NCBI GenBank assembly: GCA_014653715.1
Contig: JACWEB010000001.1
Coordinates: 84,798 to 148,797, forward strand
Origin: Pelagibacterales bacterium SAG-MED31
GTDB lineage: Bacteria > Pseudomonadota > Alphaproteobacteria > HIMB59 > GCA-002718135
Direction of reading: 5' to 3'
Length of the DNA stretch: 64,000 nucleotides
The notes under the pieces were generated by a model, which made no database searches, had not been told where the DNA came from, and was given only the letters and a program-made list of their open reading frames with translations. Positions 21,103 to 43,295 of the stretch are shown here, piece after piece (position 1 is the stretch's first letter; every line of letters starts with the position of its first letter). The position numbers and the translations under genes are program-made.

Positions 21103-21118
21103 ATTTATTTTTTATTAG

Positions 21119-22153: not shown

Positions 22154-22619
22154 ATTTTTTTAACTTGGGCCAATCATCATCACTTAAAATATATCCTACA
22201 CATTTTTTTGATCCACATTTACAAATATGATCCTCAAAATCACTATCAAAAGGATATCCATAATTATAAGTTAGCTCTGCATCTTTTTTAATATTCTTTA
22301 TCGCAGATATCCAGATTTGATTATCAGTAATTTCCACTTCACAATTTGGATTACAAGAATGATTAATGAATCTTGCATAATTCCGTAAAACACCCCCATC
22401 AATATCATATTTTTTATTGAGTTCAAAAACATACACCATGCCATTTTTCTTATTTTTTTCAGCCTTTTTTAACTGAATATCTGCACGGCGATCACCTTCT
22501 TTTTTTGTAACCTTGTCTCCAATATATTGGATGACTTGATCACCTTTTTTAATATTAGATAAAGCAAAAAGACCAGAACCATGTAGGTATGATTTTTTTT
22601 TATACCATACTTTTTGCAT
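22122..22619 (-). CDS. SET-domain protein (putative protein-lysine methyltransferase)
   Basis: SET signatures RFINHSCNPNCE and ELTYNYGY, plus a post-SET Cys cluster CKCGSKKC. It overlaps the phoR start by 32 nt. Confidence 0.8.
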   Translation of the reverse strand: MQKVWYKKKSYLHGSGLFALSNIKKGDQVIQYIGDKVTKKEGDRRADIQLKKAEKNKKNGMVYVFELNKKYDIDGGVLRNYARFINHSCNPNCEVEITDNQIWISAIKNIKKDAELTYNYGYPFDSDFEDHICKCGSKKCVGYILSDDDWPKLKKYEKKHKKGTR

Positions 22620-22714
22620 AGAGATTTATTAGATGTTTTTATTTGATATTCAAGAAATTACTGGTTATTTTTTAGATGAAATAAAAGTTTAACAAAATAA
22701 ATTTATTTTATGAT

Positions 22715-23425
22715 ATGAAAAATACTATCTTCAGTAAAGTTTTAGCTGAATTTATTGGCACATTCTTTCTTGTATTAACCGTTGTTGGTAGTGGGATCAT
22801 GGGAGAAAATTTATCTGATAATTTAGCGCTCACTCTTCTTGGTAATTCTATTGCAACTGGTGCAATTTTATTTGTTATAATTACAATGTTTATAAATATA
22901 TCAGGTGCATACTTTAATCCTGTTGTTATTATTAGTGATTATATTAATGGAAAAATATCTCTAAACATATCAACAATATTCATACTTGCTCAAATAATAG
23001 GAGGAGTTTTAGGATGCCTGCTTTCTAATATTTATTTTGAAAAAGAGATTTTTGAATGGTCAACTAATCAGCGCTATAGTTTTTCAACTTTTATATCTGA
23101 AATTGTAGCCACATTCGGTCTTATATTAACTATTATTATTATAGGCGCAAAAAATAAAGAAAAACTAGCTGTAGCGGTTGCATTGTACATAACAGCTGGC
23201 TATTGGTTTACATCTTCAACTAGTTTTGCAAATCCTGCAGTTACAATTGCAAGAATGTTTACAGATACTTTTACAGGTATTCATCCCGCGAGTGTTTTAT
23301 ACTTTATTCTAGCACAGGTAATTGGAGCATTAGTTGCATCATTTGTTGGAAAATTTTTTATAAATTCAAAAAATATTAAATCACTCACAACTATATCAAC
23401 AAAATATACGGCAGAAAAAGAATAG
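22715..23425 (+). CDS. MIP-family channel (aquaporin / aquaglyceroporin-like)
   Basis: Six hydrophobic helices. First box FNPVV (NPV instead of NPA), second box ANPAVTIAR. Convergent with arsC. Confidence 0.8.
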   Translation: MKNTIFSKVLAEFIGTFFLVLTVVGSGIMGENLSDNLALTLLGNSIATGAILFVIITMFINISGAYFNPVVIISDYINGKISLNISTIFILAQIIGGVLGCLLSNIYFEKEIFEWSTNQRYSFSTFISEIVATFGLILTIIIIGAKNKEKLAVAVALYITAGYWFTSSTSFANPAVTIARMFTDTFTGIHPASVLYFILAQVIGALVASFVGKFFINSKNIKSLTTISTKYTAEKE

Positions 23426-23522
23426 TGTGAGTGATGTGAATTTAATAATGATTTAATTTTACAAAAATATGAACAAAATATTATTATTTAAATTTTTATA
23501 AAATAAAATTATATATTTGAAA

Positions 23523-23936
23523 TTAATCTCCAAAATTAATTATTAATTCCTTTAATTTATATTTAATTAAATCTCTTACTTCTCTGAATTTATTTAATTG
23601 ATGATCAGAAAAATTTTCTGATGCAGGGTCTTCAAGTGGGATTGGGATAACAATAGCATCAGAATTTAATAAAGGGCATACTTCTTCTTTACATAAAGGA
23701 ATAACGTAATCTAAATTATTTATAAAATCATCATTCAAGCTTTCAAAATCTTTGGAAGAGTGATTAGAAATATCGATATTTATTTCCTTCATAACTTCAA
23801 TAGCAAGGGGGTTAACCCTTGACGGCATTGAACCTGCACTTTGAAATTCAATATTTGGGAAAAGTGCTCTTGCAATGCCCTCAGCCATTTGACTACGAGC
23901 TGAATTTGCAACACACATAAATAAAATTTTTTTCAT
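23523..23936 (-). CDS. arsC: Arsenate reductase, LMW-PTPase (thioredoxin-coupled) type
   Basis: P-loop MCVANSARSQMAEG (CX5R-S) and downstream Cys residues in CKEEVCP. I prefer ATG 23936 (MKKILFMC...) to the ORF-track start 23969, which removes the overlap with the upstream small ORF. Confidence 0.75.
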   Translation of the reverse strand: MKKILFMCVANSARSQMAEGIARALFPNIEFQSAGSMPSRVNPLAIEVMKEINIDISNHSSKDFESLNDDFINNLDYVIPLCKEEVCPLLNSDAIVIPIPLEDPASENFSDHQLNKFREVRDLIKYKLKELIINFGD

Positions 23937-23943
23937 TAATAAA

Positions 23944-24171
23944 TTATGACAAGTAGTAAGTGTATCCAATTATAAAAAGTGGAATTTGTAGGCCAAAGTT
24001 AGTCATCAACGCTCTGTCTTTAGTTATTAAGCCAGCAATAGACCAACCGATAGCCCCCAAACCATGAATAAAAATATTAAGAGGATAATTATTTAGATTG
24101 GTTAGAAGTATTCCAGTTAAAATTAAAATTGTACTTAACCACTTTAAATTGTTTGTTGTAATAAGACTCAT
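23944..24171 (-). CDS. 75-aa membrane protein of unknown function (about 3 helices)
   Basis: Hydrophobic ORF immediately upstream of arsC and co-oriented with it. No motif recognised. Confidence 0.4.
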   Translation of the reverse strand: MSLITTNNLKWLSTILILTGILLTNLNNYPLNIFIHGLGAIGWSIAGLITKDRALMTNFGLQIPLFIIGYTYYLS

Positions 24172-24236
24172 TGATGCTCCTAAAATTAATTTATTTATAT
24201 ATTTCTTATATTACAGTAATTTGAAATTTTGTTTAA

Positions 24237-24255
24237 ATGTAACAAATTTGTAACA
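24237..24255 (+). promoter_or_regulatory. Pho-box-like phased direct repeat upstream of the DUF47-PiT operon
   Basis: ATGTAAC-AAAT-TTGTAAC gives a TGTAACA perfect repeat at 24238 and 24249. TATAAG at 24282-24287 is a possible -10. The ATG is at 24294. Confidence 0.5.
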
Positions 24256-24293
24256 TTCCTTTATTTTTTTTTTAAAAGTTCTATAAGCCCCCG

Positions 24294-24956
24294 ATGTTTG
24301 GATTAAAAAGTAGCTCTTTATTTAGTGATACAAAAAAACTTGAGCGAGAAATTGATGGGTTTGTTGATATTCTCTCGGAGGTTGGCTTAGTATTTAAAAG
24401 TATTGTACCAACCTATCTCAACCATTCTGCCAATGGTAAATTTGATGAAATGGTTGAAAAAGTTAAAGAAATGGAGAGTAAAGCAGATAAAATAACAAAA
24501 GAAGTGGAACACACATTATATGAGGAAACGCTCATCCCTGATGCACGAAGTGATGTGTTACGTCTTCTAGAACATATGGATGAATTAATTGGTATGTACC
24601 AAGGTAATTGTTATCACTTCTCTATTCAAAAACCAAATTTTCCAAAAGAGTTTCATGAAGATCTTATCGAATTAACAGAAACCGTTGTGAATTGTGTAGA
24701 AGCTTTATGCTTAACAGTGCGTTCGTTTTTTCGTGATATTAAAAGTGTACGTGATAATGGACATAAAGTTACCTTTTATGAAAAAGAATCAGATATAAAA
24801 TTTAGTGCCTTAGCACGAAGAATTTTTGATTCCGAACTTCCTTTAGATCAAAAAATGCATCTTCGATATTTTGTTGAAAAAATTGATCGCATTTGTGATC
24901 AAGCAGAAGATATTGCTGATGAAGTTCAGATCTATGCAATTAAAAGATCCGTTTAA
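24294..24956 (+). CDS. DUF47 / PhoU-like Pit accessory protein
   Basis: 220-aa helical protein with paired acidic motifs. It sits directly upstream of a PiT transporter, the same pairing as orfA-pit in rhizobia. Confidence 0.7.
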   Translation: MFGLKSSSLFSDTKKLEREIDGFVDILSEVGLVFKSIVPTYLNHSANGKFDEMVEKVKEMESKADKITKEVEHTLYEETLIPDARSDVLRLLEHMDELIGMYQGNCYHFSIQKPNFPKEFHEDLIELTETVVNCVEALCLTVRSFFRDIKSVRDNGHKVTFYEKESDIKFSALARRIFDSELPLDQKMHLRYFVEKIDRICDQAEDIADEVQIYAIKRSV

Positions 24957-24962
24957 TAACTA

Positions 24963-26015
24963 ATGGACATCTCCATCATTATTTTTCTCTTAGGTGGATT
25001 ATTTCTTGGGTGGTCTTTAGGGGCAAATGATGCTGCTAATGTTTTTGGTACAGCGGTTGGAACACGCATGGTGCGTTTTAAAACTGCTGCTATCATCTGT
25101 AGTATCTTTGTTATATTGGGTGCGATCATTAGCGGTGCAGGAACTACCGAAACATTAGGGAAGCTTGGTGCCATCAATGCACTTCCCGGTGCTTTTGCTG
25201 CTTGTATTGCTGCAGGCATTTCAGTTTATCTAATGACGAAAGCAGGGCTTCCTGTGTCTACAACGCAAGCAATTGTTGGTGCTATTGTTGGATGGAATTT
25301 ATACACTGGATCAGCAACCAATATAAAAGTTCTCATTACAATTTTAGGCACGTGGGTATTATGTCCAGTCATTGCAGGACTAATCGCTATGGGTTTTTTT
25401 ACATTTACAAAAAATTTTATTTTAAAAAGAAAGCTTCATATTCTAAGACTGGATGCATACACACGAACAGCTCTGCTATTAGCAGGAGCCTTTGGTGCAT
25501 ACAGTTTAGGGGCAAACAATATTGCTAACGTTATGGGTGTATTTGTTCCTATATCGCCGTTTACAGATATTTCTATTTCTAGTTTTTTTGTTTTTAGCTC
25601 AAAGGAGCAATTATTTTTACTTGGGGGATTAGCTATTGCAGTTGGTGTTTTTACATATTCTAAAAAAGTTATGTTCACTGTGGGTAATGATTTATTAAAG
25701 ATGTCACCTGTTGCCGCTTTTATTGTTGTTATCTCCCACTCTATCGTTTTATTTTTATTTGCCTCTCAGGGTATTAGTAATTTTTTACAGTCAATTAATT
25801 TACCCTCTATTCCTCTTGTTCCCGTCTCCAGTTCTCAGGCTGTTGTTGGCGCTGTCATTGGAATTGGTTTATTAAAAGGAGGAAAAGAAGTGCAGTGGTC
25901 TATAGCGGGGAGAATTACAATTGGTTGGTTTACGCTTCCTGTAATTTCAGCATTAATATCAATAATACTTTTATTTATTCTCTCAAATATTTTTAACTTA
26001 ACAGTGTCGTTTTAA
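24963..26015 (+). CDS. pit: PiT-family inorganic phosphate transporter
   Basis: Duplicated PiT signature: GANDAANVFGTAVG near the N-terminus and GANNIANVMG in the second half. Polytopic, 350 aa. Confidence 0.85.
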   Translation: MDISIIIFLLGGLFLGWSLGANDAANVFGTAVGTRMVRFKTAAIICSIFVILGAIISGAGTTETLGKLGAINALPGAFAACIAAGISVYLMTKAGLPVSTTQAIVGAIVGWNLYTGSATNIKVLITILGTWVLCPVIAGLIAMGFFTFTKNFILKRKLHILRLDAYTRTALLLAGAFGAYSLGANNIANVMGVFVPISPFTDISISSFFVFSSKEQLFLLGGLAIAVGVFTYSKKVMFTVGNDLLKMSPVAAFIVVISHSIVLFLFASQGISNFLQSINLPSIPLVPVSSSQAVVGAVIGIGLLKGGKEVQWSIAGRITIGWFTLPVISALISIILLFILSNIFNLTVSF

Positions 26016-26533
26016 TTTACTGCTCGGTACGCAGTGATAAAATCTTCTTGAACTTTCGTTTCTATCGCACCTTTTCTTCTCTCTCTCACGATTTCAATTG
26101 CATCTTTTTTTTCATAGCCAAAATCGACTAACAATATTGCTGCAATTGTTCCTGCTCGTCCTTTGCCACCTCGACAATGAAATACAACGTTCGATCCCTC
26201 TATAAGTTCATTTTTAAGTAATACTTTTGTTGTCTCCCATTTGAATTTAAAATCCTGGTTGGGTGCTCCTAAATCTTGAATAGGTAAGTGATACCATTTT
26301 AAATGATGTCGATAAATTTTTTCAACAAACAATTTTTTATCACATAACTTTTCAAATTCTTTATCTTCTACAAAAGAAGTAATCGAGCTACATTGTTTTT
26401 TTGAAAATAATTCGAGTTGAGATGCAAGAATTTTGTCCTCAAATTTTCCTTCATCATTTAAGCCCGGAAAAGAAGTTAAAACTATTTTGCCATCAAATTT
26501 ATTTGAATCGATAAAATCATATGCATCGAACAT
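26012..26533 (-). CDS. Cys-based protein-tyrosine / dual-specificity phosphatase-like protein
   Basis: Active-site loop VVFHCRGGKGRAGT (HCX5R-S/T), with an upstream Asp loop IQDLGAP. It lies 2 nt downstream of the HD-domain gene. Confidence 0.6.
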   Translation of the reverse strand: MFDAYDFIDSNKFDGKIVLTSFPGLNDEGKFEDKILASQLELFSKKQCSSITSFVEDKEFEKLCDKKLFVEKIYRHHLKWYHLPIQDLGAPNQDFKFKWETTKVLLKNELIEGSNVVFHCRGGKGRAGTIAAILLVDFGYEKKDAIEIVRERRKGAIETKVQEDFITAYRAVN

Positions 26534-26535
26534 TA

Positions 26536-27096
26536 TTAGTTTGCAGATGCTTGAAATGAATTTTCTACGTATTTTCTGAAATGCTCCACAGACGGTGTTT
26601 CTTTATTAAGTATTTTTGCCTGATCATCATAACGACGCATTTCAACGGCTTCTTTCATCTGAGGTTTATTGATAAACTCCTCTGCTTCCTCTTTTGTGAA
26701 AATACCACCCTGTACTTTAAGTGACTCTTTTGATGCTTCAGATAGTTGATCATAGTACCCATCTTCTACAGCCGCCAAATATCGCTTTGATGCAACGTGT
26801 GCTCGAATAGGAAGTGTTACTTCTTCACCAAAATATTTTGACAAATAATCGGCCCCTAAATCTTCATGCACGCCATCTTTTCCCTCATGAATAGGATCTT
26901 TATCTTCATATATTAGATGACCAATATCATGAAGTAATGCAGCTGTAATAAATGCGTCTGATTTATTATTTTGCTCAGCTAATTCAGCACATTGAAGAGC
27001 GTGTTCTAACTGGGTAACATCTTCATTCCCATATTGAATATCAGCACCTTTTATCTTAAGTAAATTCAAAAGTTTATTAACGATATTGTTTTTCAT
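26536..27096 (-). CDS. HD-domain protein of the phosphonate-associated PhnZ/TmpB type (putative C-P cleaving diiron oxygenase)
   Basis: 186 aa. The ligand pattern is H32 ... H56-D57 ... H77 ... H100 ... D157, the H/HD/H/H/D series recalled for PhnZ. The Y22-x2-E25-x6-H32 spacing equals the Tyr/Glu/His spacing I recall for PhnZ. Phosphorus-gene context. Confidence 0.6.
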   Translation of the reverse strand: MKNNIVNKLLNLLKIKGADIQYGNEDVTQLEHALQCAELAEQNNKSDAFITAALLHDIGHLIYEDKDPIHEGKDGVHEDLGADYLSKYFGEEVTLPIRAHVASKRYLAAVEDGYYDQLSEASKESLKVQGGIFTKEEAEEFINKPQMKEAVEMRRYDDQAKILNKETPSVEHFRKYVENSFQASAN

Positions 27097-27140
27097 GAAT
27101 AATTAGTTAGTAAAATTATTTTATATCAAAACAATTACTA

Positions 27141-27983
27141 ATGACAAGTGCATCAATATATTTTCTAATTTTTTTTGCAGCTTTTTTACATGCTCTATGG
27201 AATATAATTATTAAATCTCTTGATAATTCTTTAGTTGGAATTGCTGTTAAGGTTTTCTTTCAAAGCATTATTTTTTTTCCACTTATTTTTTTTGTTCCTT
27301 TCCCAGAAGGTATAACTTGGCTTTACATCACTTGCTCATTTTTATTACATAGTCTTTATTTTATACTACTTGGAATTATGTATGATCGAGAAGATTTAAC
27401 TTTCATCTATCCGGTTGCAAGAGGTTGTGCTCCTGTTTTTGTAACAATTTTATCTTTTATTTTTCTTAAAGATATTATCCCTTTTTTTGGTTTTATTGGA
27501 ATTTTAATTATTTGTATTGCTTTGCTATTAATATCTGTAAGTAACTTTAATACAAAAATAGATTTTAAAACAATTGGTATTTCAATCTTTATAGCTTTTA
27601 TTATTTCTATTTATACATTCTCTGATGGAGCAGGTGTTAGATCAGTTAACAATAGTTTATCATTTATTGTGTGGAATTTTTTTTTAGGCGGTTGGATTTC
27701 TATAGGTTATGTATATCTAACAAGAAAACAGTCTTTATTTAGTTTAAAAATTAAAGAGTTATTTTTAATTTTATGTGCAACGGTAGTTTCATTTAGTGCA
27801 TATGCTATAATCATCTGGTCAATGAAATATGAGCCTTTTGGATTTGTTGCGTCAATGAGAGAGTCTAGTATTTTGTTTGCCTCACTAATTGGATTGGTTT
27901 TTTTAAAAGAAAAAATTGGGTATTTAAGAATAATATCAGGTATTTTATTCTTTATAGGCGTTAGTTTTATATTTAATGCTTAA
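27141..27983 (+). CDS. EamA/DMT-family transporter (280 aa), paralog of 51663..52505
   Basis: Ten hydrophobic helices. It shares the blocks FIYPVARG and SMRESSILFASLIGLVFLKE with the second copy. Confidence 0.7.
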   Translation: MTSASIYFLIFFAAFLHALWNIIIKSLDNSLVGIAVKVFFQSIIFFPLIFFVPFPEGITWLYITCSFLLHSLYFILLGIMYDREDLTFIYPVARGCAPVFVTILSFIFLKDIIPFFGFIGILIICIALLLISVSNFNTKIDFKTIGISIFIAFIISIYTFSDGAGVRSVNNSLSFIVWNFFLGGWISIGYVYLTRKQSLFSLKIKELFLILCATVVSFSAYAIIIWSMKYEPFGFVASMRESSILFASLIGLVFLKEKIGYLRIISGILFFIGVSFIFNA

Positions 27984-27995
27984 TTTTTCCATAAT

Positions 27996-28039
27996 TTGTA
28001 ATACTTTTGTAAAAAAAATGTAATTAAATCTCTTGTAAT
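27996..28039 (+). promoter_or_regulatory. Cluster of Pho-box-like repeats upstream of phnS
   Basis: TTGTAAT (27996), TTGTAAA (28007) and ATGTAAT (28018) are in exact 11-bp phase. A fourth TTGTAAT lies at 28033. The phnS ATG is at 28097, preceded by GGGAGG. Confidence 0.55.
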
Positions 28040-28096
28040 ACATAATTTTTTATCTTTAATGAGGTAAATAGATAACTTTTATAAACGGGAGGTAAT

Positions 28097-29116
28097 ATGA
28101 AAAAAATAACTACTATAATAAGTTTTATAAGTGTATTTTTTTTAAATTTAGTAAATGCTAATGCTGGCTCTTTAACAGTGTACACAGCAATTGAAGCAGA
28201 AGATTTAAAAAGATATGCTGCGACTTTTAATGAGGATCATCCAGATATAGAAATTAATTGGGTTCGTGACTCAACTGGAATTGTTACTGCTAAATTATTA
28301 GCAGAAAAAAATAATCCGCAAGCAGATATTATTTGGGGATTAGCCGGAACAAGTCTTATGCTAATGAAAGGTGAAGGAATGTTTGAGCCTTACTCTCCAA
28401 AAGGCATAGACAAACTTGATCCAAAATTCCGTGATGGTGATGAGCCTGCTTCATGGACAGGTATTGATGCTTGGGTTGCTGCTGTATGTGTGAATACTGT
28501 TGAGATGGCAAAACATGGTTTCTCAATGCCTTCTTCTTGGGAAGATTTGACTAAACCTGAATATGCAGGACATGTAGCAATGCCAAATCCAAATTCATCA
28601 GGAACAGGTTTTTTAGATGTTTCAAGTTGGTTACAAATTTTTGGTGAAGATGGTGGTTGGGACTTTATGGATAGACTTCATAATAATATTTCTCACTACA
28701 CTCACTCAGGTTCAAAACCTTGTAAGCAAGCTGCTTCAGGAGAAGTTCCAATAGGAGTATCTTTCGCATTTAGAGGTGCAAGATCTAAAGCAAAAGGTGC
28801 GCCAATTGAAATTATTGTTCCATCAGAAGGTGTTGGATGGGAAATGGAAGCTAACGCAATACTTAAAGGTACTGATAACTTAGAGGATGCTAAAACTTTA
28901 GCAGACTGGGCTATTTCTAAAAAAGCAATGGAGATGTATAATGTGGCATATGCTGTTGTTGGAATGCCTGGGGTTGCAAAACCCGTTGAGCATTTTCCTC
29001 CAGCATTGTTAGGCGCAATGATCAAAAATGATTTTGAGTTTGCAGCAACAAATAGAAAGGCTATCCTTGCTGAATGGCAAAGTAGATACGATTCTAAATC
29101 AGAGCCAAAAAGCTAA
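28097..29116 (+). CDS. phnS: Putative 2-aminoethylphosphonate ABC transporter substrate-binding protein (PhnS2-like)
   Basis: Signal peptide, and an Fbp-like binding-protein fold. The block WVRDSTGIVTAKLLAEKNNPQADIIWGLAGTSL resembles the AEP-binding subfamily as I recall it. It is followed by the matching ATPase, fused permease and aminophosphonate oxidoreductase. Confidence 0.7.
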   Translation: MKKITTIISFISVFFLNLVNANAGSLTVYTAIEAEDLKRYAATFNEDHPDIEINWVRDSTGIVTAKLLAEKNNPQADIIWGLAGTSLMLMKGEGMFEPYSPKGIDKLDPKFRDGDEPASWTGIDAWVAAVCVNTVEMAKHGFSMPSSWEDLTKPEYAGHVAMPNPNSSGTGFLDVSSWLQIFGEDGGWDFMDRLHNNISHYTHSGSKPCKQAASGEVPIGVSFAFRGARSKAKGAPIEIIVPSEGVGWEMEANAILKGTDNLEDAKTLADWAISKKAMEMYNVAYAVVGMPGVAKPVEHFPPALLGAMIKNDFEFAATNRKAILAEWQSRYDSKSEPKS

Positions 29117-29131
29117 TTTAATCTAGAAAAT

Positions 29132-29164
29132 AAAAAGCTTACAATTAATTTTGTAAGCTTTTTA
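29132..29164 (+). terminator. Hairpin terminator/attenuator after phnS
   Basis: AAAAAGCTTACAA-TTAATT-TTGTAAGCTTTTT forms a 13-bp stem including A/T ends, followed by a T-run. It starts 16 nt after the phnS stop. Confidence 0.7.
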
Positions 29165-29177
29165 TTAATGTAATTTT

Positions 29178-30239
29178 ATGGAACAATATTTATCAGTAAA
29201 AAATATCAATAAGTACTTTGGGGATTTCCAAGCACTTAAAAATGTAAGTTTTGATGTTAAAGAAGGTGAGTTTGTATGCATACTAGGTCCTTCAGGATGT
29301 GGAAAAACAACTCTACTAAGAGTAATTGCAGGGCTAGAGAGTCAATCAGAGGGATTAATTAATCAAAACAATAAAGACATATCTTTACTTCCTCCTGATC
29401 AAAGAGACTTTGGAATTGTATTTCAATCTTATGCTTTATTTCCAAACTTAAGCGTAAAAAATAATATATCCTTTGGATTAAAAACAAGAAAAAAAAATAA
29501 AGAAACAATTGATAAAAGGGTTGATGAATTATTAGAATTAGTTGGTTTAAGTGATCATATAAATAAGTTTTCCGCTCAATTATCCGGTGGCGAACAACAA
29601 CGTGTTGCATTAGCAAGAGCTTTAGCGCCTTCCCCAGGATTATTACTTTTAGATGAACCTCTTTCAGCATTAGATGCAAAAGTAAGACAGCATTTACGGT
29701 TAGAAATAAAAAATCTTCAAAGACAGTTAGGCGTGACTACAATTATGGTTACTCATGATCAAGAAGAGGCATTAACTATGGCGGATAGAATCATATTAAT
29801 GAATAATGGAGTTATTGAACAAGAAGGATCACCTCAAGATCTGTATTCAAAACCAGAAACTGCGTTTTCTGCAAATTTTATAGGAACAACAAATTTATTT
29901 AAAGCTAAAAGAATTTCTGAAAATAGTCTTGAAATTAATGGATCAATATTAGAATGTAATGAAAATATAAAAGATGATTTATTAACAATAACAATCAGAC
30001 CAGAGGATATTAAGATTTGTGAAACTGGTAGTGAAAAAAATATTTTAAAAGGGACAATAAAAGAGCTTGAGTTTTTAGGGTCAAATATTAGAGGGCATAT
30101 AGAAGTAGACTTCAAATCAGAAAAGACAAATGTTATTTGTAATTTTGCCTCTGAATATATTTTAAATAATAATATTCAAAATAATTCTTCTGTTAGCATT
30201 TCACTACAACCGCATGCACTTAAAGTTGTTAAGGCATAG
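29178..30239 (+). CDS. phnT: Putative AEP ABC transporter ATP-binding protein (PhnT2-like)
   Basis: GPSGCGKTT, LSGGEQQRVALARAL, LLLDEP, and a C-terminal TOBE-like regulatory domain. Confidence 0.7.
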   Translation: MEQYLSVKNINKYFGDFQALKNVSFDVKEGEFVCILGPSGCGKTTLLRVIAGLESQSEGLINQNNKDISLLPPDQRDFGIVFQSYALFPNLSVKNNISFGLKTRKKNKETIDKRVDELLELVGLSDHINKFSAQLSGGEQQRVALARALAPSPGLLLLDEPLSALDAKVRQHLRLEIKNLQRQLGVTTIMVTHDQEEALTMADRIILMNNGVIEQEGSPQDLYSKPETAFSANFIGTTNLFKAKRISENSLEINGSILECNENIKDDLLTITIRPEDIKICETGSEKNILKGTIKELEFLGSNIRGHIEVDFKSEKTNVICNFASEYILNNNIQNNSSVSISLQPHALKVVKA

Positions 30240-30247
30240 ATTTAACT

Positions 30248-31915
30248 ATGAAAAAAAGTAGAGACGATTATCTAACCATATTTTTTATATCAATTATAGG
30301 TATTTATATTTTGATAGCGCTTGCTTTTCCGATGTATGCAATATTATCAAAAAGTGTTGAAAATAAAGATGGTATTTTTATAGGTTTTGAAAACTATCAA
30401 AGTTATTTTTCAAATCCTGCCTTAGTATATTCAATATATAACAGTTTATTTATTTCCATTATTACAATGGTTATAACAATATCTTTAGCATTTGTTTTTG
30501 CCTATGCACTTACAAAGAGTTGCATGATAGGAAAAAGTGTATTTCGATCAATCGCAATGATCCCTATTTTAGTGCCATCTCTTTTATCTGGTATTTCTCT
30601 TATTTATCTCTTTGGCAAACAAGGAATATTTAGAGATTTAATGATGGGTTACGATATCTATGGTCCTATTGGTATCATTATAGCTGAAGTTTTTTATACC
30701 TTCCCACATGCATTGCTTATTATTATTACAGCATTATCAATAGGGGATGCAAGGTTATACGAAGCAGCAAAAGTTTTACGATCAAAATCTATTCGGACTT
30801 TTTTTACTGTTACCCTTCCTTCAGCAAAATATGGTGTTATCAGTGCAGCATTTGTGGTTTTCACTTTAGTTATTACAGACTTTGGAATTCCTAAAGTTAT
30901 AGGCGGGCAATTTAATGTTCTTGCAGTTGATGTATACAAGCAAGTAATAGGGCAACAAAATTTTGAAATGGGAGCTGTTGTAAGTGTTGTGCTTATTTTT
31001 CCCGCTCTTTTAGCTTTTGTAGTCGATCGTATTGTTCAAAGAAAACAAGTAGCTATATTAACCTCTCGCTCCGTTGTGCATGAACCAAATAAAAGTAAAA
31101 AATTTGATTTAATTATGCTTATTTATTGTTCTGTTATATCCGTGTTTATTCTTACTATTATAGGGATGTGTTTATACGCAAGTCTAGTTACGTTTTGGCC
31201 CTACAATTTATCTCTTTCATTAGATAACTATCAATTTGATTTAATGGATGGAGGAGGATGGGATTCATATTACAACTCAATTCGTATGGCTTGTTACACA
31301 GCTTTTTTTGGAACAATTGTTGTCTTTACTGGAGCATATTTTGTAGAAAAATCACGAAGTGTTAAGACAGGACGCTCAATTCTTCATTTATTATCTATGA
31401 TGCCTATGGCTATTCCAGGTTTAGTGCTAGGACTTGCTTACATTTTCTTTTTTAATCATCCTGATAATCCATTAAATTTTATATACGGCACAATGGCAAT
31501 ATTAGTAATTTGTACAATCACTCACTTTTATACTGTATCTCATTTAACAGCACTAACATCATTAAAACAAATAGATAATGAATTTGAGCATGTATCGTCT
31601 TCACTTAAACAGCCTTTTTATAAAACTTTTTTTCGTGTAACAGTACCAATTAGTCTTCCAGCAATTTTTGAAATTGGTATTTATTTCTTTGTAAATGCAA
31701 TGACTACAGTATCAGCTGTTGTTTTTCTTTATAGCTCTAAAACAAATTTAGCATCGGTTGCCGTTTTAAATATGGATGATGCTGGAGACATTGCGCCTGC
31801 TGCTGCTATGGGAATGATGATTTTTTATACAAATGCTGCAGTTAGAATTATTTATGTACTGATAACTAAGAAAATATTAGTTAGATTTCAAAAATGGCGA
31901 ACAAAAACTGTATAA
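30248..31915 (+). CDS. phnU: Putative AEP ABC transporter fused two-domain permease (PhnU2-like)
   Basis: 555 aa with two six-helix permease modules, as in the fused iron(III)/AEP-type permeases. Confidence 0.7.
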   Translation: MKKSRDDYLTIFFISIIGIYILIALAFPMYAILSKSVENKDGIFIGFENYQSYFSNPALVYSIYNSLFISIITMVITISLAFVFAYALTKSCMIGKSVFRSIAMIPILVPSLLSGISLIYLFGKQGIFRDLMMGYDIYGPIGIIIAEVFYTFPHALLIIITALSIGDARLYEAAKVLRSKSIRTFFTVTLPSAKYGVISAAFVVFTLVITDFGIPKVIGGQFNVLAVDVYKQVIGQQNFEMGAVVSVVLIFPALLAFVVDRIVQRKQVAILTSRSVVHEPNKSKKFDLIMLIYCSVISVFILTIIGMCLYASLVTFWPYNLSLSLDNYQFDLMDGGGWDSYYNSIRMACYTAFFGTIVVFTGAYFVEKSRSVKTGRSILHLLSMMPMAIPGLVLGLAYIFFFNHPDNPLNFIYGTMAILVICTITHFYTVSHLTALTSLKQIDNEFEHVSSSLKQPFYKTFFRVTVPISLPAIFEIGIYFFVNAMTTVSAVVFLYSSKTNLASVAVLNMDDAGDIAPAAAMGMMIFYTNAAVRIIYVLITKKILVRFQKWRTKTV

Positions 31916-31928: not shown

Positions 31929-33344
31929 ATGGATTTACATTATCAATCACCTTGGTTTAATGAAGCTTTAGCAAAAGAAGAAAATTTAAAAATTAGTGAA
32001 TTAAATTTAAATCTTTCTTGTGACGTTTGTATTATTGGGGGTGGGTTCACAGGTCTGTGGACTGCAATTAAAATTAAAGAAAAAAAACCCAAACTAAATA
32101 TTATTTTAATTGAAAAAGATTTATGTGGAAGTGGTGCTTCAGGAAGAAACGGTGGTTGTATGATACCTCAATCAACAAAATTTCAAGGAATAAGAGATGT
32201 GGTTGGTGTTAATGATGCAAAAAAAATGGTTTTGTCAACTGAAGCTGCAGTAAAAAATATAAAAGATTTTTGTTCTGAAAATAAGATTAATGCAGAAATA
32301 AGAGATGATGGCGTTTTATACGGTGCTACAAATAAATTCCATCAAGGGGCTTTTGAAAATCTTATAAGAGATTTAAATCAACATAATATAAATAGCTGGG
32401 AAAGATTATCAAAAGAAAAAGTCCAAGACTTAACAAAATCAAAAAAATTTATTGATGGTTATTTTTCACCAATAGGCGGAAGTTTACAGCCAGCTATTCT
32501 TGTAAGAGGTCTGAAAAAATTAGCTGAAAATATTGGCATTAAAATTTTTGAAAAAAGTACTGTAACTTCTTATAATTATAAAAAAGAGATACTTGTAAAA
32601 ACTAAGAATGGATCAGTATCTTGTGAGAAATTAGTGTTCGCAATCAATGCATGGACTCCAAAATTTTTACCTTTTTTATCAAGAAGCGTAGTTTTAGTTT
32701 CTTCCGATATGATAATTAGTGAACCAATAAAACACCAATTACAAAATATCGGTTTAACTAATGGGCTTGTAATATTAGACTCTAATTTATTTACTCATTA
32801 TTCTAGAACAACTCCAGATGGAAAAATTATCTTAGGCAAGGGAGGAAATACTTTTTCTTTTAGAAATAAAGTTATTGATTCATTTGATGGTCCGAGCACT
32901 ATTGAAAAATATTTAAAAAAATCACTAGTGAGTTTCTATCCTTCGCTCAAAGAAGCAAAAATTACTGCATCTTGGAATGGTCCTTCTGAGAGAACAAAAA
33001 CTGGATTTCCTTTTTTTGGATACCATCCAAAAAATAAAAATATTTCATATGCTTTTGGTTATTCAGGAAATGGCGTTCTTACGTGTCATGTTGGTGGAGA
33101 AATATTAAGCAGTATGACTCTTGATGAAAATAATAAGTGGACTGATAGTAATTTTTGTAAAGGACCATTAAAAAACTTTCCTCCTGAACCATTTAGATGG
33201 TTAGGCGCCATGATAATAAGAAATGCTGTACGAAGAAAGGAAAATGCTCAGGAAAAAGAGATAAATCCAAATTGGATTGATAAACAGCTTGCAAAACTTG
33301 CTGCTTCTGTTGGAAGAGTCGATCTTAAGAAGAATAAAAATTAA
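31929..33344 (+). CDS. FAD-dependent aminophosphonate oxidoreductase (DAO family)
   Basis: Dinucleotide fold VCIIGGGFTGLWTA, 471 aa. It sits directly after phnS/T/U, the context of the family annotated as putative aminophosphonate oxidoreductase (PbfC/PbfD-like). Confidence 0.65.
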   Translation: MDLHYQSPWFNEALAKEENLKISELNLNLSCDVCIIGGGFTGLWTAIKIKEKKPKLNIILIEKDLCGSGASGRNGGCMIPQSTKFQGIRDVVGVNDAKKMVLSTEAAVKNIKDFCSENKINAEIRDDGVLYGATNKFHQGAFENLIRDLNQHNINSWERLSKEKVQDLTKSKKFIDGYFSPIGGSLQPAILVRGLKKLAENIGIKIFEKSTVTSYNYKKEILVKTKNGSVSCEKLVFAINAWTPKFLPFLSRSVVLVSSDMIISEPIKHQLQNIGLTNGLVILDSNLFTHYSRTTPDGKIILGKGGNTFSFRNKVIDSFDGPSTIEKYLKKSLVSFYPSLKEAKITASWNGPSERTKTGFPFFGYHPKNKNISYAFGYSGNGVLTCHVGGEILSSMTLDENNKWTDSNFCKGPLKNFPPEPFRWLGAMIIRNAVRRKENAQEKEINPNWIDKQLAKLAASVGRVDLKKNKN

Positions 33345-42185: not shown

Positions 42186-43295
42186 TTAAAAAACTCTCAA
42201 TTCTTCACAAGCTTTATTAAACGCTTTTTTATTACCTAAAAAATTTTTTCCTCTTTCCCCTTCAAAAGCATCAGAAACAATAATATCCCAATCTTGTTTA
42301 GCAATTTTTAATTCATTTAAATTCAAGGGGATTTCTAAATTTCGAAGTTCTTCTAAAAGCATAATTGATGAGTTATCTAAATCATCATTCAAAATTTTTT
42401 CTAATCTTTCTTCAGCAACTTTATTTACCCCTTTCATACTGCGCATAACAAATGGAAGACTGAAAGAGCAGGCAATGCCATGCTGAATACCGTGCTGTAT
42501 TGTAATTGGATATGAAATATTATGTGCAATAGCTGTTTTAGTGTTTGAAAAAGCAAGACCTGCGTGAACACAAGCCATAGCTAAATTAGTTCTGAGCTCA
42601 AGGTTTTGTAGGTCACTCACTAATTTTGGTAAATTTTCTAAAATCATTTTTGCTCCAGCAATTCCATGCATAGCCGATATTGGATTTGCATTTATATTCC
42701 AAATACTTTCCATCGAGTGGGATAATGCATCTAAACCTGTTGAGATCGTCAATCCTTTTGGTTTATCTAACATGATTGAAGGATCGATAATCGCTATTTT
42801 GGGATATAAATCTTTATGTGCTAATGATAGTTTACTATCCATCTCCTTATCCCAAATTGTTGCCCAACATGTAAATTCACTGGATGTTCCTGATGTTGTT
42901 GGTATAGCAATAATATCAATTGGCTGCTCAACTTGAGGGGCTTGTTTATTTCTAACAAATTCAGTTAAGAGATTTTTATTATCTTTAAAAGAAGCTAATG
43001 CCTTTGCAGTATCGGTAACAGAGCCTCCTCCAATAGCAACTATACAATCAATTTCTTTCACTGCTGAAAATTTTTCAAGAAGCAATAAGATGTTATTATA
43101 GTCAGGATTAGGTTGTACTTCAGTAATAATCATTTGAGGTGGGTTATGAAAGCCAGACAAAACATCTGTGTATTTTTTAAAAATATCTTCAGGATGAGTT
43201 ACAATTACATATTTTTTATTATTTAATATTGAAGACAGCTCATTAAACTTATTTGCTCCAAAAACAATATCAACAGGATTATAATATTTCCACAT
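42186..43295 (-). CDS. Iron-containing (group III) alcohol dehydrogenase
   Basis: YYNPVDIVFG start, GGGSVTDTAKA NAD motif, and a His cluster (LSHSMES, AIAHNISY, HGIQHGIA) for metal binding. Confidence 0.8.
   Translation of the reverse strand: MWKYYNPVDIVFGANKFNELSSILNNKKYVIVTHPEDIFKKYTDVLSGFHNPPQMIITEVQPNPDYNNILLLLEKFSAVKEIDCIVAIGGGSVTDTAKALASFKDNKNLLTEFVRNKQAPQVEQPIDIIAIPTTSGTSSEFTCWATIWDKEMDSKLSLAHKDLYPKIAIIDPSIMLDKPKGLTISTGLDALSHSMESIWNINANPISAMHGIAGAKMILENLPKLVSDLQNLELRTNLAMACVHAGLAFSNTKTAIAHNISYPITIQHGIQHGIACSFSLPFVMRSMKGVNKVAEERLEKILNDDLDNSSIMLLEELRNLEIPLNLNELKIAKQDWDIIVSDAFEGERGKNFLGNKKAFNKACEELRVF

What the first reader, a model, noticed from the sequence alone, without database searches (positions are those of the whole stretch)
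26012..27096. Orphan PhnZ/TmpB-like HD-domain oxygenase co-operonic with a Cys-based phosphatase, with no partner hydroxylase in sight
The 186-aa HD protein keeps the H / HD / H / H / D ligand series and the Tyr-x2-Glu-x6-His spacing that I recall for PhnZ. PhnZ is a mixed-valent diiron oxygenase that oxidatively cleaves the C-P bond of 1-hydroxy-2-aminoethylphosphonate. Known systems pair this enzyme with a 2-oxoglutarate/Fe(II) hydroxylase (PhnY* or TmpA) that makes the 1-hydroxy substrate. No such gene exists in this 64-kb window. Instead the HD gene is followed 2 nt later by an HCX5R dual-specificity / PTP-like phosphatase. I do not know this pairing from described phosphonate pathways. 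Three readings are possible. The cell may use environmental 1-hydroxy-phosphonates directly. The HD enzyme may have a new substrate. Or the Cys-phosphatase may process a phosphorylated or esterified precursor first.
Basis: partly seen in the sequence, partly recalled or inferred. Interest (0 to 1): 0.65.

Follow-up and report, generated by a model that had tools for sequence, protein, structure and literature searches.

The report
SAR11 hydroxylase-less PhnZ oxygenase plus Cys-phosphatase
A marine SAR11-type genome has a phosphonate-cleaving PhnZ-like iron oxygenase with no nearby hydroxylase partner; it is fused into one operon with a small cysteine phosphatase that elsewhere rides on phosphonate-type importers, so the ocean's commonest 'phnZ' probably works differently from the textbook pathway.

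Summary
On the minus strand, a 186-aa HD protein (26536-27096) is followed 2 nt later by a 173-aa HCX5R phosphatase (26012-26533).

- **HD protein.** It is a genuine PhnZ-family protein. It matches TmpB at E 4e-34 and PhnZ at 1e-30, and all metal ligands and substrate residues are conserved. It belongs to its own SAR11 clade.
- **No hydroxylase.** No PhyH or TauD hydroxylase occurs in the 64-kb window or in 47 related SAR11 loci. This is a stable architecture, not operon decay.
- **Not contextless.** The pair sits in a Pho/phosphonate island with PhnS2T2U2, a FAD amine oxidoreductase, PhnW, PhnY, PhnA and a PhpC-like dehydrogenase.
- **Pairing.** The phosphatase directly follows HD in 34 of 37 SAR11 species representatives.
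- **Deeper partner.** The phosphatase's more widely conserved partner is a second PhnS2T2U2-type importer. In other Alphaproteobacteria it is the last gene of EamA | S2' | T2'-U2'-PTP modules that have no C-P enzyme nearby.

Best reading: HD oxidatively cleaves pre-formed alpha-hydroxyphosphonates taken up from seawater. The phosphatase is a cytoplasmic phosphate-releasing accessory of the importer module. Both substrates are inferred, not shown. This is a new variant of a known kind, of moderate to high interest.

The parts
26536..27096 (-). PhnZ-family HD-domain protein, a putative mixed-valent diiron oxygenase (186 aa)
   Evidence: TIGR03276 gives 206.7 bits against a 214.6 cutoff, and Pfam HD gives 33.5 bits. 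It matches TmpB 6npa at E 4e-34 and PhnZ 4mlm at 1e-30 over the full length. All ligand and substrate columns are conserved and it falls in a monophyletic SAR11 clade. Median dN/dS is about 0.10.
26012..26533 (-). Cytoplasmic Cys-based DSP/PTP-fold phosphatase (173 aa) with HCRGGKGR P-loop, D87 general acid and Q162
   Evidence: Pfam PTP-SAK gives 53.5 bits against a cutoff of 27. It matches SsoPTP at E 5e-11. The AF2 model has pLDDT 89.9, and the top Foldseek hits are PRL-1, KAP, Tk-PTP and SsoPTP with TM 0.7-0.86. C120, R126, D87 and Q162 are invariant. Median dN/dS is about 0.18. The lack of a signal peptide was judged by eye, not tested.
27118..27147 (-). Sigma-70-like promoter match (TTGTCA-18-TAAAAT) upstream of the HD-PTP operon; the HD/EamA intergenic region is only 44 bp
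   Evidence: This is a consensus scan only. Promoter-like sites were fewer than in shuffled sequence, and no terminator lies between HD and PTP.
27141..27983 (+). EamA/DUF6 membrane protein, the 'phosphonate utilisation associated' type, divergent from HD
   Evidence: TIGR03340 gives 146 bits, below its 288 cutoff, and Pfam EamA matches. An EamA gene also flanks every PTP-bearing importer module outside SAR11.
28097..31915 (+). PhnS2-PhnT2-PhnU2 ABC importer, type A: 28097-29116, 29178-30239, 30248-31915
   Evidence: TIGR03261 scores 500.9, TIGR03265 scores 489 and TIGR03262 scores 802 bits, all above their cutoffs.
27997..28024 (+). Pho-box-like triple direct repeat (TGTAAT-N5)x3 upstream of phnS2
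   Evidence: The window holds 6 such sites against 0.51 expected, and none of 100 shuffles reached 6. The others lie upstream of phoB, pstC and the SBP at 44466-45701.
31929..33344 (+). FAD-dependent aminophosphonate oxidoreductase (PbfB/C-like)
   Evidence: TIGR03329 gives 585 bits against a 632.8 cutoff. The function of this enzyme class is taken from PMC10590968.
38468..41079 (+). PhnW (38468-39580), ureidoglycolate-lyase-like cupin (39591-40229) and SpdA/GpdQ-like metallophosphoesterase (40246-41079). In most SAR11 relatives this operon sits directly divergent from HD-PTP.
42186..43295 (-). PhpC-type iron alcohol dehydrogenase (2-hydroxyethylphosphonate to phosphonoacetaldehyde)
   Evidence: TIGR03405 gives 364 bits. 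The catabolic role is taken from PMC13576164.
45843..48519 (-). Likely PhnY phosphonoacetaldehyde dehydrogenase (45843-47282) and PhnA phosphonoacetate hydrolase (47275-48519)
   Evidence: I did not run these two window ORFs against any family library. The names rest on reading their translations. Their homologues in L001 carry precomputed Pfam Aldedh and Phosphodiest hits. The pair is conserved in the SAR11 loci.
24294..26015 (+). PhoU_div/DUF47 (24294-24956) and PiT/PHO4 phosphate transporter (24963-26015). They are convergent with PTP and overlap it by 4 nt.
   Evidence: This pair is the neighbour of PTP in nearly all SAR11 loci.

Best explanation
This is a two-gene operon in the phosphorus-acquisition island of a SAR11 (Pelagibacterales) genome.

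**Gene 1** encodes a PhnZ-family HD-domain mixed-valent diiron oxygenase. It binds an alpha-hydroxyalkylphosphonate through its C1-OH and phosphonate oxygens, then uses O2 to cleave the C-P bond, releasing phosphate and a carboxylic acid. No hydroxylase is linked to it in this lineage. The 1-hydroxy substrate is therefore most likely taken up ready-made from seawater. The leading candidate is (R)-1-hydroxy-2-aminoethylphosphonate, because the amine-binding Tyr and Glu are kept. Hydroxymethylphosphonate or a related compound is also possible. Uptake would be through PhnS2T2U2-type importers.

**Gene 2** encodes a cytoplasmic Cys-nucleophile DSP-fold phosphohydrolase. Its orthologues are the terminal gene of a second PhnS2T2U2-type importer module. 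It most likely releases phosphate from a small phosphate ester that enters by the same route. An amino-alkyl phosphate analogue of AEP is the kind of compound expected.

In streamlined SAR11 genomes the two phosphate-releasing enzymes ended up as one transcription unit.

**Shown:** the gene pair, the catalytic residues, the folds, purifying selection, absence of a linked hydroxylase, and the conserved neighbourhoods.

**Inferred:** the oxygenase chemistry, both substrates, and co-regulation.
For: **HD identity.** TIGR03276 gives 206.7 bits. The protein matches TmpB and PhnZ structures at E 4e-34 and 1e-30 over the full length. All 15 ligand and substrate columns are identical to PhnZ and TmpB across 55 family members.

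**Purifying selection.** Median dN/dS is about 0.10 for HD and 0.18 for PTP.

**No linked hydroxylase.** The window's six-frame translation has no PhyH or TauD match. None of the SAR11 loci L001-L047 has one. By contrast, 9 Poribacteria loci have a GmPhnY*-like PhyH directly upstream of HD.

**Pairing with PTP.** PTP follows HD within 0-6 nt in 34 of 37 GTDB SAR11 representatives. One more has it 4.9 kb downstream, after T2'U2'. The remaining two are truncated contigs.

**PTP and the importer.** The closest non-SAR11 PTP clusters (P0242, P0254, P0249-like, P0427, P0429) all overlap or follow PhnU2' in EamA | S2' | T2'-U2'-PTP modules. No HD, PhnW, PhnX or PhnA lies within about 10 kb of these. 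Type-B importer proteins are 70-81% identical between SAR11 and those organisms, but only 48-56% identical to the window's type A.

**PTP fold and residues.** The AF2 model has pLDDT 89.9 and matches PRL, KAP and SsoPTP. C120, R126, D87 and Q162 are invariant.

**Literature.**
- Free (R)- and (S)-HAEP are treated as environmental nutrients with dedicated catabolic enzymes (PMC12366243, PMC10574752).
- PhnZ enzymes tolerate several (R)-alpha-hydroxyphosphonates (PMC10574752).
- Marine phnZ outnumbers phnY* by about 3- to 6-fold (PMC3266647).
- Pelagibacterales make up 45% of marine phnZ sequences (PMC9381506).
Against: - No biochemical data exist for this clade.
- A hydroxylase could be encoded elsewhere in the genome. 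Only the 64-kb window and about 10 kb of flank per related locus were examined.
- The HD score is slightly below the TIGR03276 cutoff and far below the GmPhnZ1 and TmpB equivalog cutoffs, so the substrate may differ from all characterised ones.
- The phosphatase fold (PRL/KAP/SsoPTP-like) is typical of protein phosphatases and says nothing about a small-molecule substrate.
- More distant relatives of the phosphatase are fused to ADP-ribosylglycohydrolases, which points to nucleotide-derived substrates.
- The tight HD-PTP spacing might be a by-product of deleting the importer genes that separate them in L007 and L041.
- The Pho-box-like repeat that marks neighbouring operons is absent upstream of HD-PTP, so co-regulation with phosphorus starvation is not shown.
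Confidence: 0.45

Rival explanations
1. This is the canonical two-step pathway with an unlinked hydroxylase. A PhyH- or TauD-family 2-oxoglutarate dioxygenase encoded elsewhere in the SAR11 genome hydroxylates 2-AEP or methylphosphonate. HD then cleaves the product. The phosphatase would be an unrelated neighbour.
For: Only the 64-kb window and about 10 kb of flank per locus were searched. All characterised PhnZ-type enzymes work with such a partner (PMC10574752). That SAR11 genomes carry PhyH-family genes is my recollection, not something tested here.
Against: In every characterised system, and in the 9 Poribacteria loci, the hydroxylase is adjacent to HD. None of 47 SAR11 loci has one, across 71-92% HD divergence. 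Metagenome surveys find phnY* 3- to 6-fold rarer than phnZ (PMC3266647). About 18 Bacteroidota and Planctomycetota relatives also lack it.
Confidence: 0.2
2. HD and the phosphatase act in sequence on phosphonate esters. HD cleaves the C-P bond of an esterified alpha-hydroxyphosphonate, such as a phosphonolipid or phosphonoglycan head-group fragment. That reaction leaves a phosphate monoester, and the Cys-phosphatase then hydrolyses it to free phosphate.
For: The gene order HD then PTP, with a 0-6 nt spacer, is conserved in 34 of 37 loci. C-P cleavage of a phosphonate monoester must yield a phosphate monoester; this is chemical reasoning. The island also encodes a GpdQ/SpdA-like phosphodiesterase and a Ugp-like transporter. 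That marine phosphonates are largely esterified is general knowledge.
Against: Outside SAR11 the phosphatase occurs with the importer and without any HD. All phosphonate-binding residues of PhnZ (K104, R105, S119, S122, Q129, R154) are kept, which suggests a free dianionic phosphonate. No enzymology supports phosphonate esters as PhnZ substrates.
Confidence: 0.15
3. The phosphatase is regulatory or protective rather than catabolic. It might be a protein phosphatase or PRL-like binding partner that modulates the importer, the PiT transporter or Pho signalling. Or it might be a thiol protein that keeps the diiron site of HD in its active mixed-valent state.
For: The best structural matches are protein phosphatases. 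They include the PRLs, which regulate CNNM transporters by binding them. The gene always lies beside transporters, either PiT/PhoU_div or PhnT2'U2'. That MVDO enzymes need reductive activation is general knowledge.
Against: The full catalytic set (Cys, Arg, general-acid Asp, Gln) is invariant, so this is not a pseudophosphatase. Only one Cys is invariant, so there is no redox pair. Neither the kinase nor the substrate of such a regulatory circuit is identified.
Confidence: 0.1
4. The phosphatase is an Acr2-like arsenate reductase. It would detoxify arsenate that enters through PiT or Pst during phosphorus starvation.
For: It has an HCX5R motif. PiT, an LMW-PTP-type ArsC and an aquaporin lie nearby at 22715-26015. 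Arsenate stress in low-phosphate SAR11 is documented (PMC6426599).
Against: The fold is DSP, not rhodanese/Cdc25 or LMW-PTP. A dedicated ArsC is already present. PTP-bearing modules outside SAR11 have no ars genes. The SAR11 survey cited found only ArsC and the aquaporin as arsenic genes (PMC6426599).
Confidence: 0.04
5. The HD protein is an ordinary HD phosphohydrolase, acting on nucleotides or (p)ppGpp, and not an oxygenase.
For: Pfam places it only in the generic HD family.
Against: The full-length match is to PhnZ and TmpB only. Both the six-ligand diiron set and the Y/E/H substrate motif are conserved. A weak MIOX match appears, and no nucleotide-hydrolase family does.
Confidence: 0.03

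Closest known systems
PhnY*/PhnZ oxidative 2-AEP pathway (marine fosmid HF130_AEPn_1; PhnZ structures 4MLM/4MLN)
   Same: The HD-domain architecture is the same length. The H/HD/H/H/D ligands, the Y-x2-E-x6-H motif, the extra His after the HD dyad and the phosphonate-binding K/R/S/S/Q/R residues are all conserved. Identity is 36.6% at E 1e-30.
   Different: No adjacent PhyH-type hydroxylase is present. The protein belongs to a separate SAR11 clade. It is co-transcribed with a Cys-phosphatase and embedded in a PhnW/PhnY/PhnA island.
TmpA/TmpB (Leisingera caerulea; 6NPA) and GmPhnY*/GmPhnZ1 (Gimesia maris)
   Same: TmpB is the best solved-structure match, at 40.6% identity and E 4e-34. These systems show that the family accepts different alpha-hydroxyphosphonates (PMC10574752).
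   Different: Scores on the TmpB and GmPhnZ1 equivalog models are 159 and 164 bits against cutoffs of 300. No TauD or PhyH partner is present. The GmPhnZ1-like Poribacteria sequences form a different branch.
TIGR03276 'Phn-HD' context: HD with PhnS2T2U2, DUF6/EamA and a FAD oxidoreductase
   Same: The window reproduces this curated genome context: EamA, PhnS2T2U2 and a TIGR03329 oxidoreductase lie next to HD. JGI already names close homologues 'phosphonate degradation associated HDIG domain protein'.
   Different: The phosphatase is matched by no curated phosphonate model; its only NCBIfam hit is negligible, 14.3 bits on a 'hypothetical protein' model with a 505-bit cutoff. The HD score is just under the trusted cutoff.
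HD + TIGR03364 (PbfD-like) FAD oxidase + PhnX-like HAD + DUF5690 clusters of Bacteroidota and Planctomycetota
   Same: This is another widespread PhnZ-like architecture without a hydroxylase, and it holds the nearest non-SAR11 relatives at 45-51% identity.
   Different: The partners differ. These clusters have no phosphatase and no PhnS2T2U2.
PbfA/PbfF route for environmental (R)/(S)-HAEP
   Same: It sets a precedent for bacteria catabolising pre-formed 1-hydroxy-2-aminoethylphosphonate without making it themselves (PMC12366243).
   Different: Those enzymes funnel HAEP into phosphonoacetaldehyde. Here an oxygenase would cleave it directly.
Small DSP-fold Cys phosphatases: SsoPTP, Tk-PTP, PRL/PTP4A, KAP
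   Same: The fold, the HCX5R P-loop, the general-acid Asp and the C-terminal 'GAIET..QE' motif are shared. Identity to SsoPTP is 29-30%, with TM 0.7-0.86.
   Different: This phosphatase is encoded as the terminal gene of ABC-importer and phosphonate operons. Its P-loop is basic (HC[R/M/W]GGKGR). Its substrate is unknown.

Membership tests
[quoted passage not shown] | Six diiron ligands H / HD / H / H / D in an HD-domain protein of about 190 aa | tested here: met
   H32, H56-D57, H77, H100 and D157 align to the PhnZ and TmpB ligands and are invariant in 55 sequences.
[quoted passage not shown] | Substrate-gating and binding residues: Tyr and Glu of the Y-x2-E motif, the His after the HD dyad, and the K/R/S/S/Q/R phosphonate pocket | tested here: met
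   Y22, E25, H60, K104, R105, S119, S122, Q129 and R154 are identical to PhnZ and TmpB.
[quoted passage not shown] | Score above the curated family threshold | tested here: inconclusive
   TIGR03276 gives 206.7 against a 214.6 cutoff. The GmPhnZ1 model gives 163.6 and the TmpB model 158.8, both against cutoffs of 300. The protein is therefore a family-level member that matches none of the characterised equivalogs.
[quoted passage not shown] | O2-dependent C-P cleavage with an Fe(II)/Fe(III) cofactor | not testable with these tools
   This requires enzymology and Moessbauer or EPR spectroscopy.
Canonical two-enzyme oxidative pathway (PhnY*/PhnZ, TmpA/TmpB, GmPhnY*/PhnZ1) | An adjacent Fe(II)/2-oxoglutarate hydroxylase (PhyH or TauD family) that makes the 1-hydroxy substrate | tested here: not met
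   No PhyH or TauD match occurs in the window's six-frame translation or in L001-L047. As a positive control, PhyH sits at position -1 in 9 Poribacteria loci.
Cys-based PTP/DSP superfamily | HCX5R P-loop, general-acid Asp and the DSP alpha/beta fold | tested here: met
   H119, C120 and R126 form the P-loop, and D87 and Q162 are invariant. Pfam PTP-SAK gives 53.5 against a cutoff of 27. The AF2 model has pLDDT 89.9, and Foldseek places PRL-1, KAP and SsoPTP on top.
Cys-based PTP/DSP superfamily | Phosphatase activity and substrate class (protein or small molecule) | not testable with these tools
   Only context is available. The gene is the terminal gene of importer operons, and distant relatives are fused to ADP-ribosylglycohydrolase.
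PhnS2T2U2 'type II 2-AEP' ABC importer | Scores above the TIGR03261, TIGR03265 and TIGR03262 cutoffs | tested here: met
   The window's type A scores 500.9, 489 and 802 bits. The type-B binding proteins score 399-410 against a cutoff of 392.75, and the type-B permeases score 756-769 bits. The actual ligand of either type is not known.
Arsenate reductases (Acr2/Cdc25-type or LMW-PTP ArsC) | Rhodanese or LMW-PTP fold, with ars gene context | tested here: not met
   The fold is DSP. The ArsC in the window is a different gene, at 23523-23969. PTP modules outside SAR11 lack ars genes.

The most novel reading that the evidence does not exclude
The Cys-phosphatase may be a dedicated catalytic component of an undescribed organophosphorus-scavenging route. 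It could finish the job after the HD oxygenase cleaves C-P bonds of esterified hydroxyphosphonates. Or, together with EamA and the type-B PhnS2'T2'U2' importer, it could dephosphorylate an imported phospho-amine or phosphagen-like compound. If either is right, the most abundant 'phnZ' lineage in the ocean (SAR11) is not a 2-AEP/PhnY*-dependent gene at all. Marine phosphonate budgets built on phnZ counts would then need re-reading.
Probability: 0.25. Interest if true: 0.8.

Novelty: new variant of a known kind. Interest (0 to 1): 0.6.

Why it matters
Pelagibacterales contribute about 45% of marine phnZ sequences, and one survey ranks phnZ as the most abundant phosphonate-catabolic gene in the ocean (PMC9381506). 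A second survey, which counted only characterised PhnZ subclades, found them rare (PMC8316502), and a review flags this disagreement (PMC10574752). Earlier metagenome counts already showed phnZ 3- to 6-fold more common than phnY* (PMC3266647).

This locus shows what the abundant SAR11 form looks like. It is a separate clade with no linked hydroxylase, it sits in a phosphonate island, and it is co-transcribed with a conserved Cys-phosphatase. That turns a bookkeeping discrepancy into a testable question: which hydroxyphosphonates, or phosphate esters, does SAR11 actually harvest?

It also adds a candidate component, the phosphatase and the type-B importer module, that is missing from current phosphonate pathway models and curated HMM sets.

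Tried and rejected
- **Hidden hydroxylase.** I built a PhyH HMM from the Poribacteria neighbours of HD and used TauD and PhyH seeds from L174 and L175. I searched the window's six-frame translation and all loci. Nothing turned up in SAR11.
- **Other dioxygenases in SAR11 loci.** Clustering all unassigned ORFs of the SAR11 loci, judged from their sequences without a family search, gave what look like Pho-island genes (PlcP-like, a glycosyltransferase, Ppk, Ppx, SixA-like). No dioxygenase-like cluster was seen.
- **Ureidoglycolate-lyase-like cupin as the missing oxygenase.** It has an invariant H-x-D that AllA lacks, and a homologue lies beside an HD cluster in a planctomycete. However, its conserved motifs otherwise track AllA, and no 2-oxoglutarate-binding signature could be shown. 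This is left as a lead.
- **HD-phosphatase gene fusions.** None of the 120 listed HD hits or 120 listed phosphatase hits has both domains. Long phosphatase relatives are tandem PTP repeats or fusions to ADP-ribosylglycohydrolase.
- **Pho-box regulation of HD-PTP.** A (TGTAAT-N5)x3 repeat marks phoB, pstC, phnS2 and the SBP operon. It is absent upstream of HD in the window and in 44 SAR11 loci.
- **Arsenate-reductase reading.** Rejected on fold and context.
- **Literature.** Searches for any description of a phosphonate, HD and dual-specificity-phosphatase pairing, or of this gene in SAR11 phosphorus-starvation work, found nothing. The Carini 2014 paper is not held.
- **Phosphatase fold search.** It returned only generic small DSPs and so could not indicate a substrate.


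Full report
**Setting.** The window has about 30% G+C. Its gene content and its closest relatives are Pelagibacterales (SAR11) single-cell and metagenome genomes. The finding lies in the phosphorus-acquisition island. The layout, in order:

| Genes | Coordinates |
|---|---|
| pstSCAB-phoU-phoB-phoR | 15082-22153 |
| SET-domain protein, aquaporin, LMW-PTP ArsC | 22122-23969 |
| PhoU_div + PiT | 24294-26015 |
| The phosphatase/HD pair | 26012-27096, minus strand |
| EamA-PhnS2T2U2 and a TIGR03329 FAD oxidoreductase | 27141-33344 |
| SDR and a ProVXW-like importer | 33560-38455 |
| PhnW, ureidoglycolate-lyase-like cupin, metallophosphoesterase | 38468-41079 |
| An unknown 369-aa protein | 41076-42185 |
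| PhpC-type iron alcohol dehydrogenase | 42186-43295 |
| MetE-like protein | 43308-44387 |
| A binding protein | 44466-45701 |
| PhnY aldehyde dehydrogenase, PhnA | 45843-48519 |
| Ugp-like transporter | 48649-51639 |
| A second EamA | 51663-52505 |

**Checking the observation.** HD (26536-27096, minus, 186 aa) ends in TAA. Two bases later comes the ATG of a 173-aa ORF (26012-26533). No terminator-like site separates them, and a promoter-like match sits in the 44-bp HD/EamA spacer. The phosphatase carries H119-C120-RGGKG-R126.

The HD protein matches only TmpB (6NPA, E 4e-34) and PhnZ (4MLM, E 1e-30) among solved structures, over its full length. It is 40.6% identical to TmpB and 36.6% to PhnZ. 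In a 55-sequence alignment the following are identical to PhnZ and TmpB:
- the metal ligands H32, H56-D57, H77, H100 and D157;
- the Y22-x2-E25 motif and H60;
- the phosphonate pocket K104, R105, S119, S122, Q129 and R154.

TIGR03276 ('phosphonate degradation HD-domain oxygenase') gives 206.7 bits, just under its 214.6 cutoff. The GmPhnZ1 and TmpB equivalog models give 164 and 159 bits against cutoffs of 300. The protein is a PhnZ-family member that matches none of the three characterised subtypes.

**Is the hydroxylase really missing?** Every window ORF of at least 100 aa that I ran against Pfam or NCBIfam fell in a family other than PhyH or TauD; the others were judged from their translations alone. 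A PhyH HMM built from true PhnY*-like neighbours of HD in Poribacteria found nothing in the six-frame translation. Neither did TauD and PhyH seed sequences, even at E up to 1-10.

I then fetched 80 HD loci from one genome per GTDB species, plus 10 loci anchored on the phosphatase.
- Among 37 SAR11 representatives (HD 73-92% identical) and the 10 others, none has a PhyH or TauD gene within about 10 kb.
- HD evolves under purifying selection, with median dN/dS about 0.10.

This is not operon decay. It is a lineage-wide architecture. It is also not unique to SAR11. Of 43 non-SAR11 relatives (45-51% identical):
- only 9 (Poribacteria) have the GmPhnY*-like hydroxylase directly upstream;
- about 18 Bacteroidota and Planctomycetota loci instead combine HD with a TIGR03364 (PbfD-like) FAD oxidase, a PhnX-like HAD hydrolase and a DUF5690 transporter;
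- cyanobacterial copies sit next to PhnM-like and ABC ATPase genes, which I read by eye as C-P lyase clusters.

A neighbour-joining tree places the SAR11 sequences in their own clade. That clade is separate from PhnZ, TmpB and the GmPhnZ1-like group.

This fits published surveys. phnZ is found in 9.4-10% of marine genome equivalents, against 1.6-3% for phnY* (PMC3266647). Pelagibacterales supply 45% of marine phnZ (PMC9381506). The characterised PhnZ subclades are rare (PMC8316502), and the discrepancy is noted in PMC10574752.

**The phosphatase.** Pfam places it in PTP-SAK and the DSP families. The nearest solved sequences are SsoPTP, Tk-PTP and the PRLs. An AlphaFold2 model (pLDDT 89.9) superposes on PRL-1, KAP, Tk-PTP, SsoPTP and PTPMT1 with TM 0.7-0.86. 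Across 25 homologues down to 55% identity, C120, R126, the general-acid D87 and Q162 are invariant, and no second Cys is invariant. By eye I see no signal peptide at the N-terminus; this was not tested. Median dN/dS is about 0.18. It therefore looks like an active cytoplasmic Cys-phosphatase. The fold does not reveal the substrate.

**Neighbourhood statistics.** In 34 of the 37 SAR11 HD loci the phosphatase starts 0-6 nt after HD. The usual layout is PhnA-PhnY-...-[MPE, cupin, PhnW] <-> [HD, PTP] | [PiT, PhoU_div]. L041 and the metagenome locus L007 read HD | EamA | S2' | T2'-U2'-PTP instead. L014 and L020 are contigs that end before a phosphatase could appear.

A profile search of 1.84 billion representatives shows a compact SAR11 cluster at 294 bits. 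A few close clusters follow (P0242 at 193 bits, P0247 at 148, P0248 at 142, P0249 at 141, P0254 at 127). Beyond those lies the broad DSP family.

Loci for these close clusters were recovered from metagenomes and assemblies: P0242, P0254, P0249-like, P0427 and P0429. In every case the phosphatase overlaps or directly follows a PhnU2-type permease, in modules EamA(+) | S2'(-) | T2'(+)-U2'(+)-PTP(+). A convergent HAD hydrolase often follows. No HD, PhnW, PhnX or PhnA lies within about 10 kb.

This importer, here called type B, still passes the PhnS2 and PhnU2 models. It is only 48-56% identical to the window's own type-A importer. It is 70-81% identical between SAR11 and these other Alphaproteobacteria of 37-44% G+C.

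The deep, conserved partner of the phosphatase is therefore the importer. The HD-phosphatase junction is specific to SAR11. It may have arisen when the importer genes between them were lost.

**How it most likely works.** HD would carry out the known PhnZ chemistry on an alpha-hydroxyphosphonate. Because no hydroxylase is linked, the substrate is probably imported ready-made. (R)-HAEP is the leading candidate, since the amine-binding Tyr and Glu are kept. Free HAEP is already treated as an environmental nutrient with dedicated enzymes (PbfA, PbfF; PMC12366243). PhnZ enzymes accept several (R)-alpha-hydroxyphosphonates (PMC10574752).

The rest of the island handles other compounds through phosphonoacetaldehyde, PhnY and PhnA:
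- 2-AEP through PhnW;
- N-methyl-AEP, probably through the FAD oxidoreductase (PMC10590968);
- 2-hydroxyethylphosphonate through the PhpC-type dehydrogenase (PMC13576164).

HD would add the 1-hydroxy compounds that these routes cannot take.

The phosphatase is encoded at the end of importer operons that have no C-P enzyme nearby. It most plausibly releases phosphate from a small phosphate ester that enters by that route. These steps are inferred from context only.

**Rival explanations.** Four rivals were weighed:
- an unlinked hydroxylase elsewhere in the genome;
- sequential action on phosphonate esters, where C-P cleavage of an ester leaves a phosphate monoester for the phosphatase;
- a regulatory or protective role for the phosphatase;
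- arsenate reduction.

Each is laid out with its evidence in the rival explanations section.

**Regulation.** A triple direct repeat (TGTAAT-N5)x3 occurs six times in the window against 0.51 expected. It lies upstream of phoB, pstC, phnS2 and the binding-protein operon, like a Pho box. It is absent upstream of HD-PTP here and in 44 SAR11 loci. Those loci carry instead a conserved inverted repeat in the phnW/HD spacer. Phosphorus-starvation control of the pair is therefore not shown.

**Novelty.** The HD gene is already counted as 'phnZ' in surveys, and JGI names it a phosphonate-associated HDIG protein. Three things are not described, either in curated models or in the papers searched:
- the conserved phosphatase partner;
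- the type-B importer-phosphatase module;
- the explicit demonstration that the dominant marine phnZ clade lacks a linked hydroxylase.

I rate it a new variant of a known kind. Interest is moderate to high because it makes a standing discrepancy in marine phosphonate gene counts experimentally testable.

Noticed in passing
window 39591-40229 (+); L077 6509-7300 (-): A 212-aa ureidoglycolate-lyase-like cupin (PF04115, E 1e-9) always follows phnW in SAR11 loci. A 50%-identical homologue sits beside an HD / FAD-oxidase / PhnX-like / DUF5690 cluster in a Pirellulaceae MAG. It has an invariant W-H-x-N-Y-H-P-D-G-G-Q motif, whose H-x-D is H-P-L in E. coli AllA. It is probably an uncharacterised enzyme of phosphonate catabolism.
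   Followed up: partly
window 15778-15805, 19954-19992, 27997-28024, 44432-44459, 45751-45778: A Pho-box-like triple direct repeat (TGTAAT-N5)x3 lies upstream of phoB, pstC, phnS2 and the binding-protein operon. There are 6 sites against 0.51 expected from shuffles. It is absent upstream of HD-PTP.
   Followed up: partly
L012-L016 phnW/HD intergenic regions (e.g. L012 about 3370-3465): A conserved inverted repeat AACTTA-N19/20-TAAGTT lies in the roughly 95-bp spacer between divergent phnW and HD in other SAR11 genomes. It may be an operator for a regulator other than PhoB. The window's own 44-bp spacer has a different 7-nt inverted repeat (TTAGTAA...TTACTAA).
   Followed up: no
L002 2769-6767; L007 2206-6722; L041; L091-L094; L171-L177: A second PhnS2T2U2 paralogue, type B, is only 48-56% identical to the window's importer. 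It is 70-81% identical between SAR11 and Alphaproteobacteria of 37-44% G+C, which suggests horizontal transfer. It carries the phosphatase as its last gene.
   Followed up: yes
L171 2644-5037; L174 3856-4845 and 13761-14789; L093 822-1811; L176 8102-11569: Guanidino-compound enzymes lie next to non-SAR11 type-B importer-phosphatase modules: arginase-family hydrolases, and creatinase together with a DAO-type oxidase. This hints that the cargo could be a phospho-guanidino or amino-alkyl phosphate compound. The lineages are few and not independent.
   Followed up: no
proteins P0260, P0269, P0273, P0279, P0309, P0342: More distant relatives of the phosphatase are fused to ADP-ribosylglycohydrolase domains or form tandem PTP repeats. 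This likely explains why JGI labels some SAR11 copies (P0052) 'ADP-ribosyl-[dinitrogen reductase] hydrolase'.
   Followed up: partly
L048-L090, e.g. L057 8798-11250, L087 8620-12665: A widespread architecture without a hydroxylase occurs in Bacteroidota and Planctomycetota: DUF5690 transporter, TIGR03364 (PbfD-like) FAD oxidase, PhnZ-like HD and a PhnX-like HAD hydrolase. Its pathway logic is also unexplained.
   Followed up: partly
window 41076-42185 (-): A conserved 369-aa protein matches no family apart from a faint methyltransferase signal. It is retained between the metallophosphoesterase and the PhpC-type dehydrogenase in most SAR11 phosphonate clusters.
   Followed up: no
window 11371-12570 (-): A ZnuA-like binding protein carries an unusually long, roughly 100-aa Asp/Glu/His repeat tract (DHDDHDDHDEDHD...). 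The tract also creates spurious ORFs on the opposite strand.
   Followed up: no
window 22122-22619 (-), 23944-24171 (-): A SET-domain protein overlaps the start of phoR, and a 75-aa DUF6552 membrane protein lies nearby. Both are conserved fixtures of the SAR11 phosphate island in nearly all related loci, and their role is unknown.
   Followed up: no
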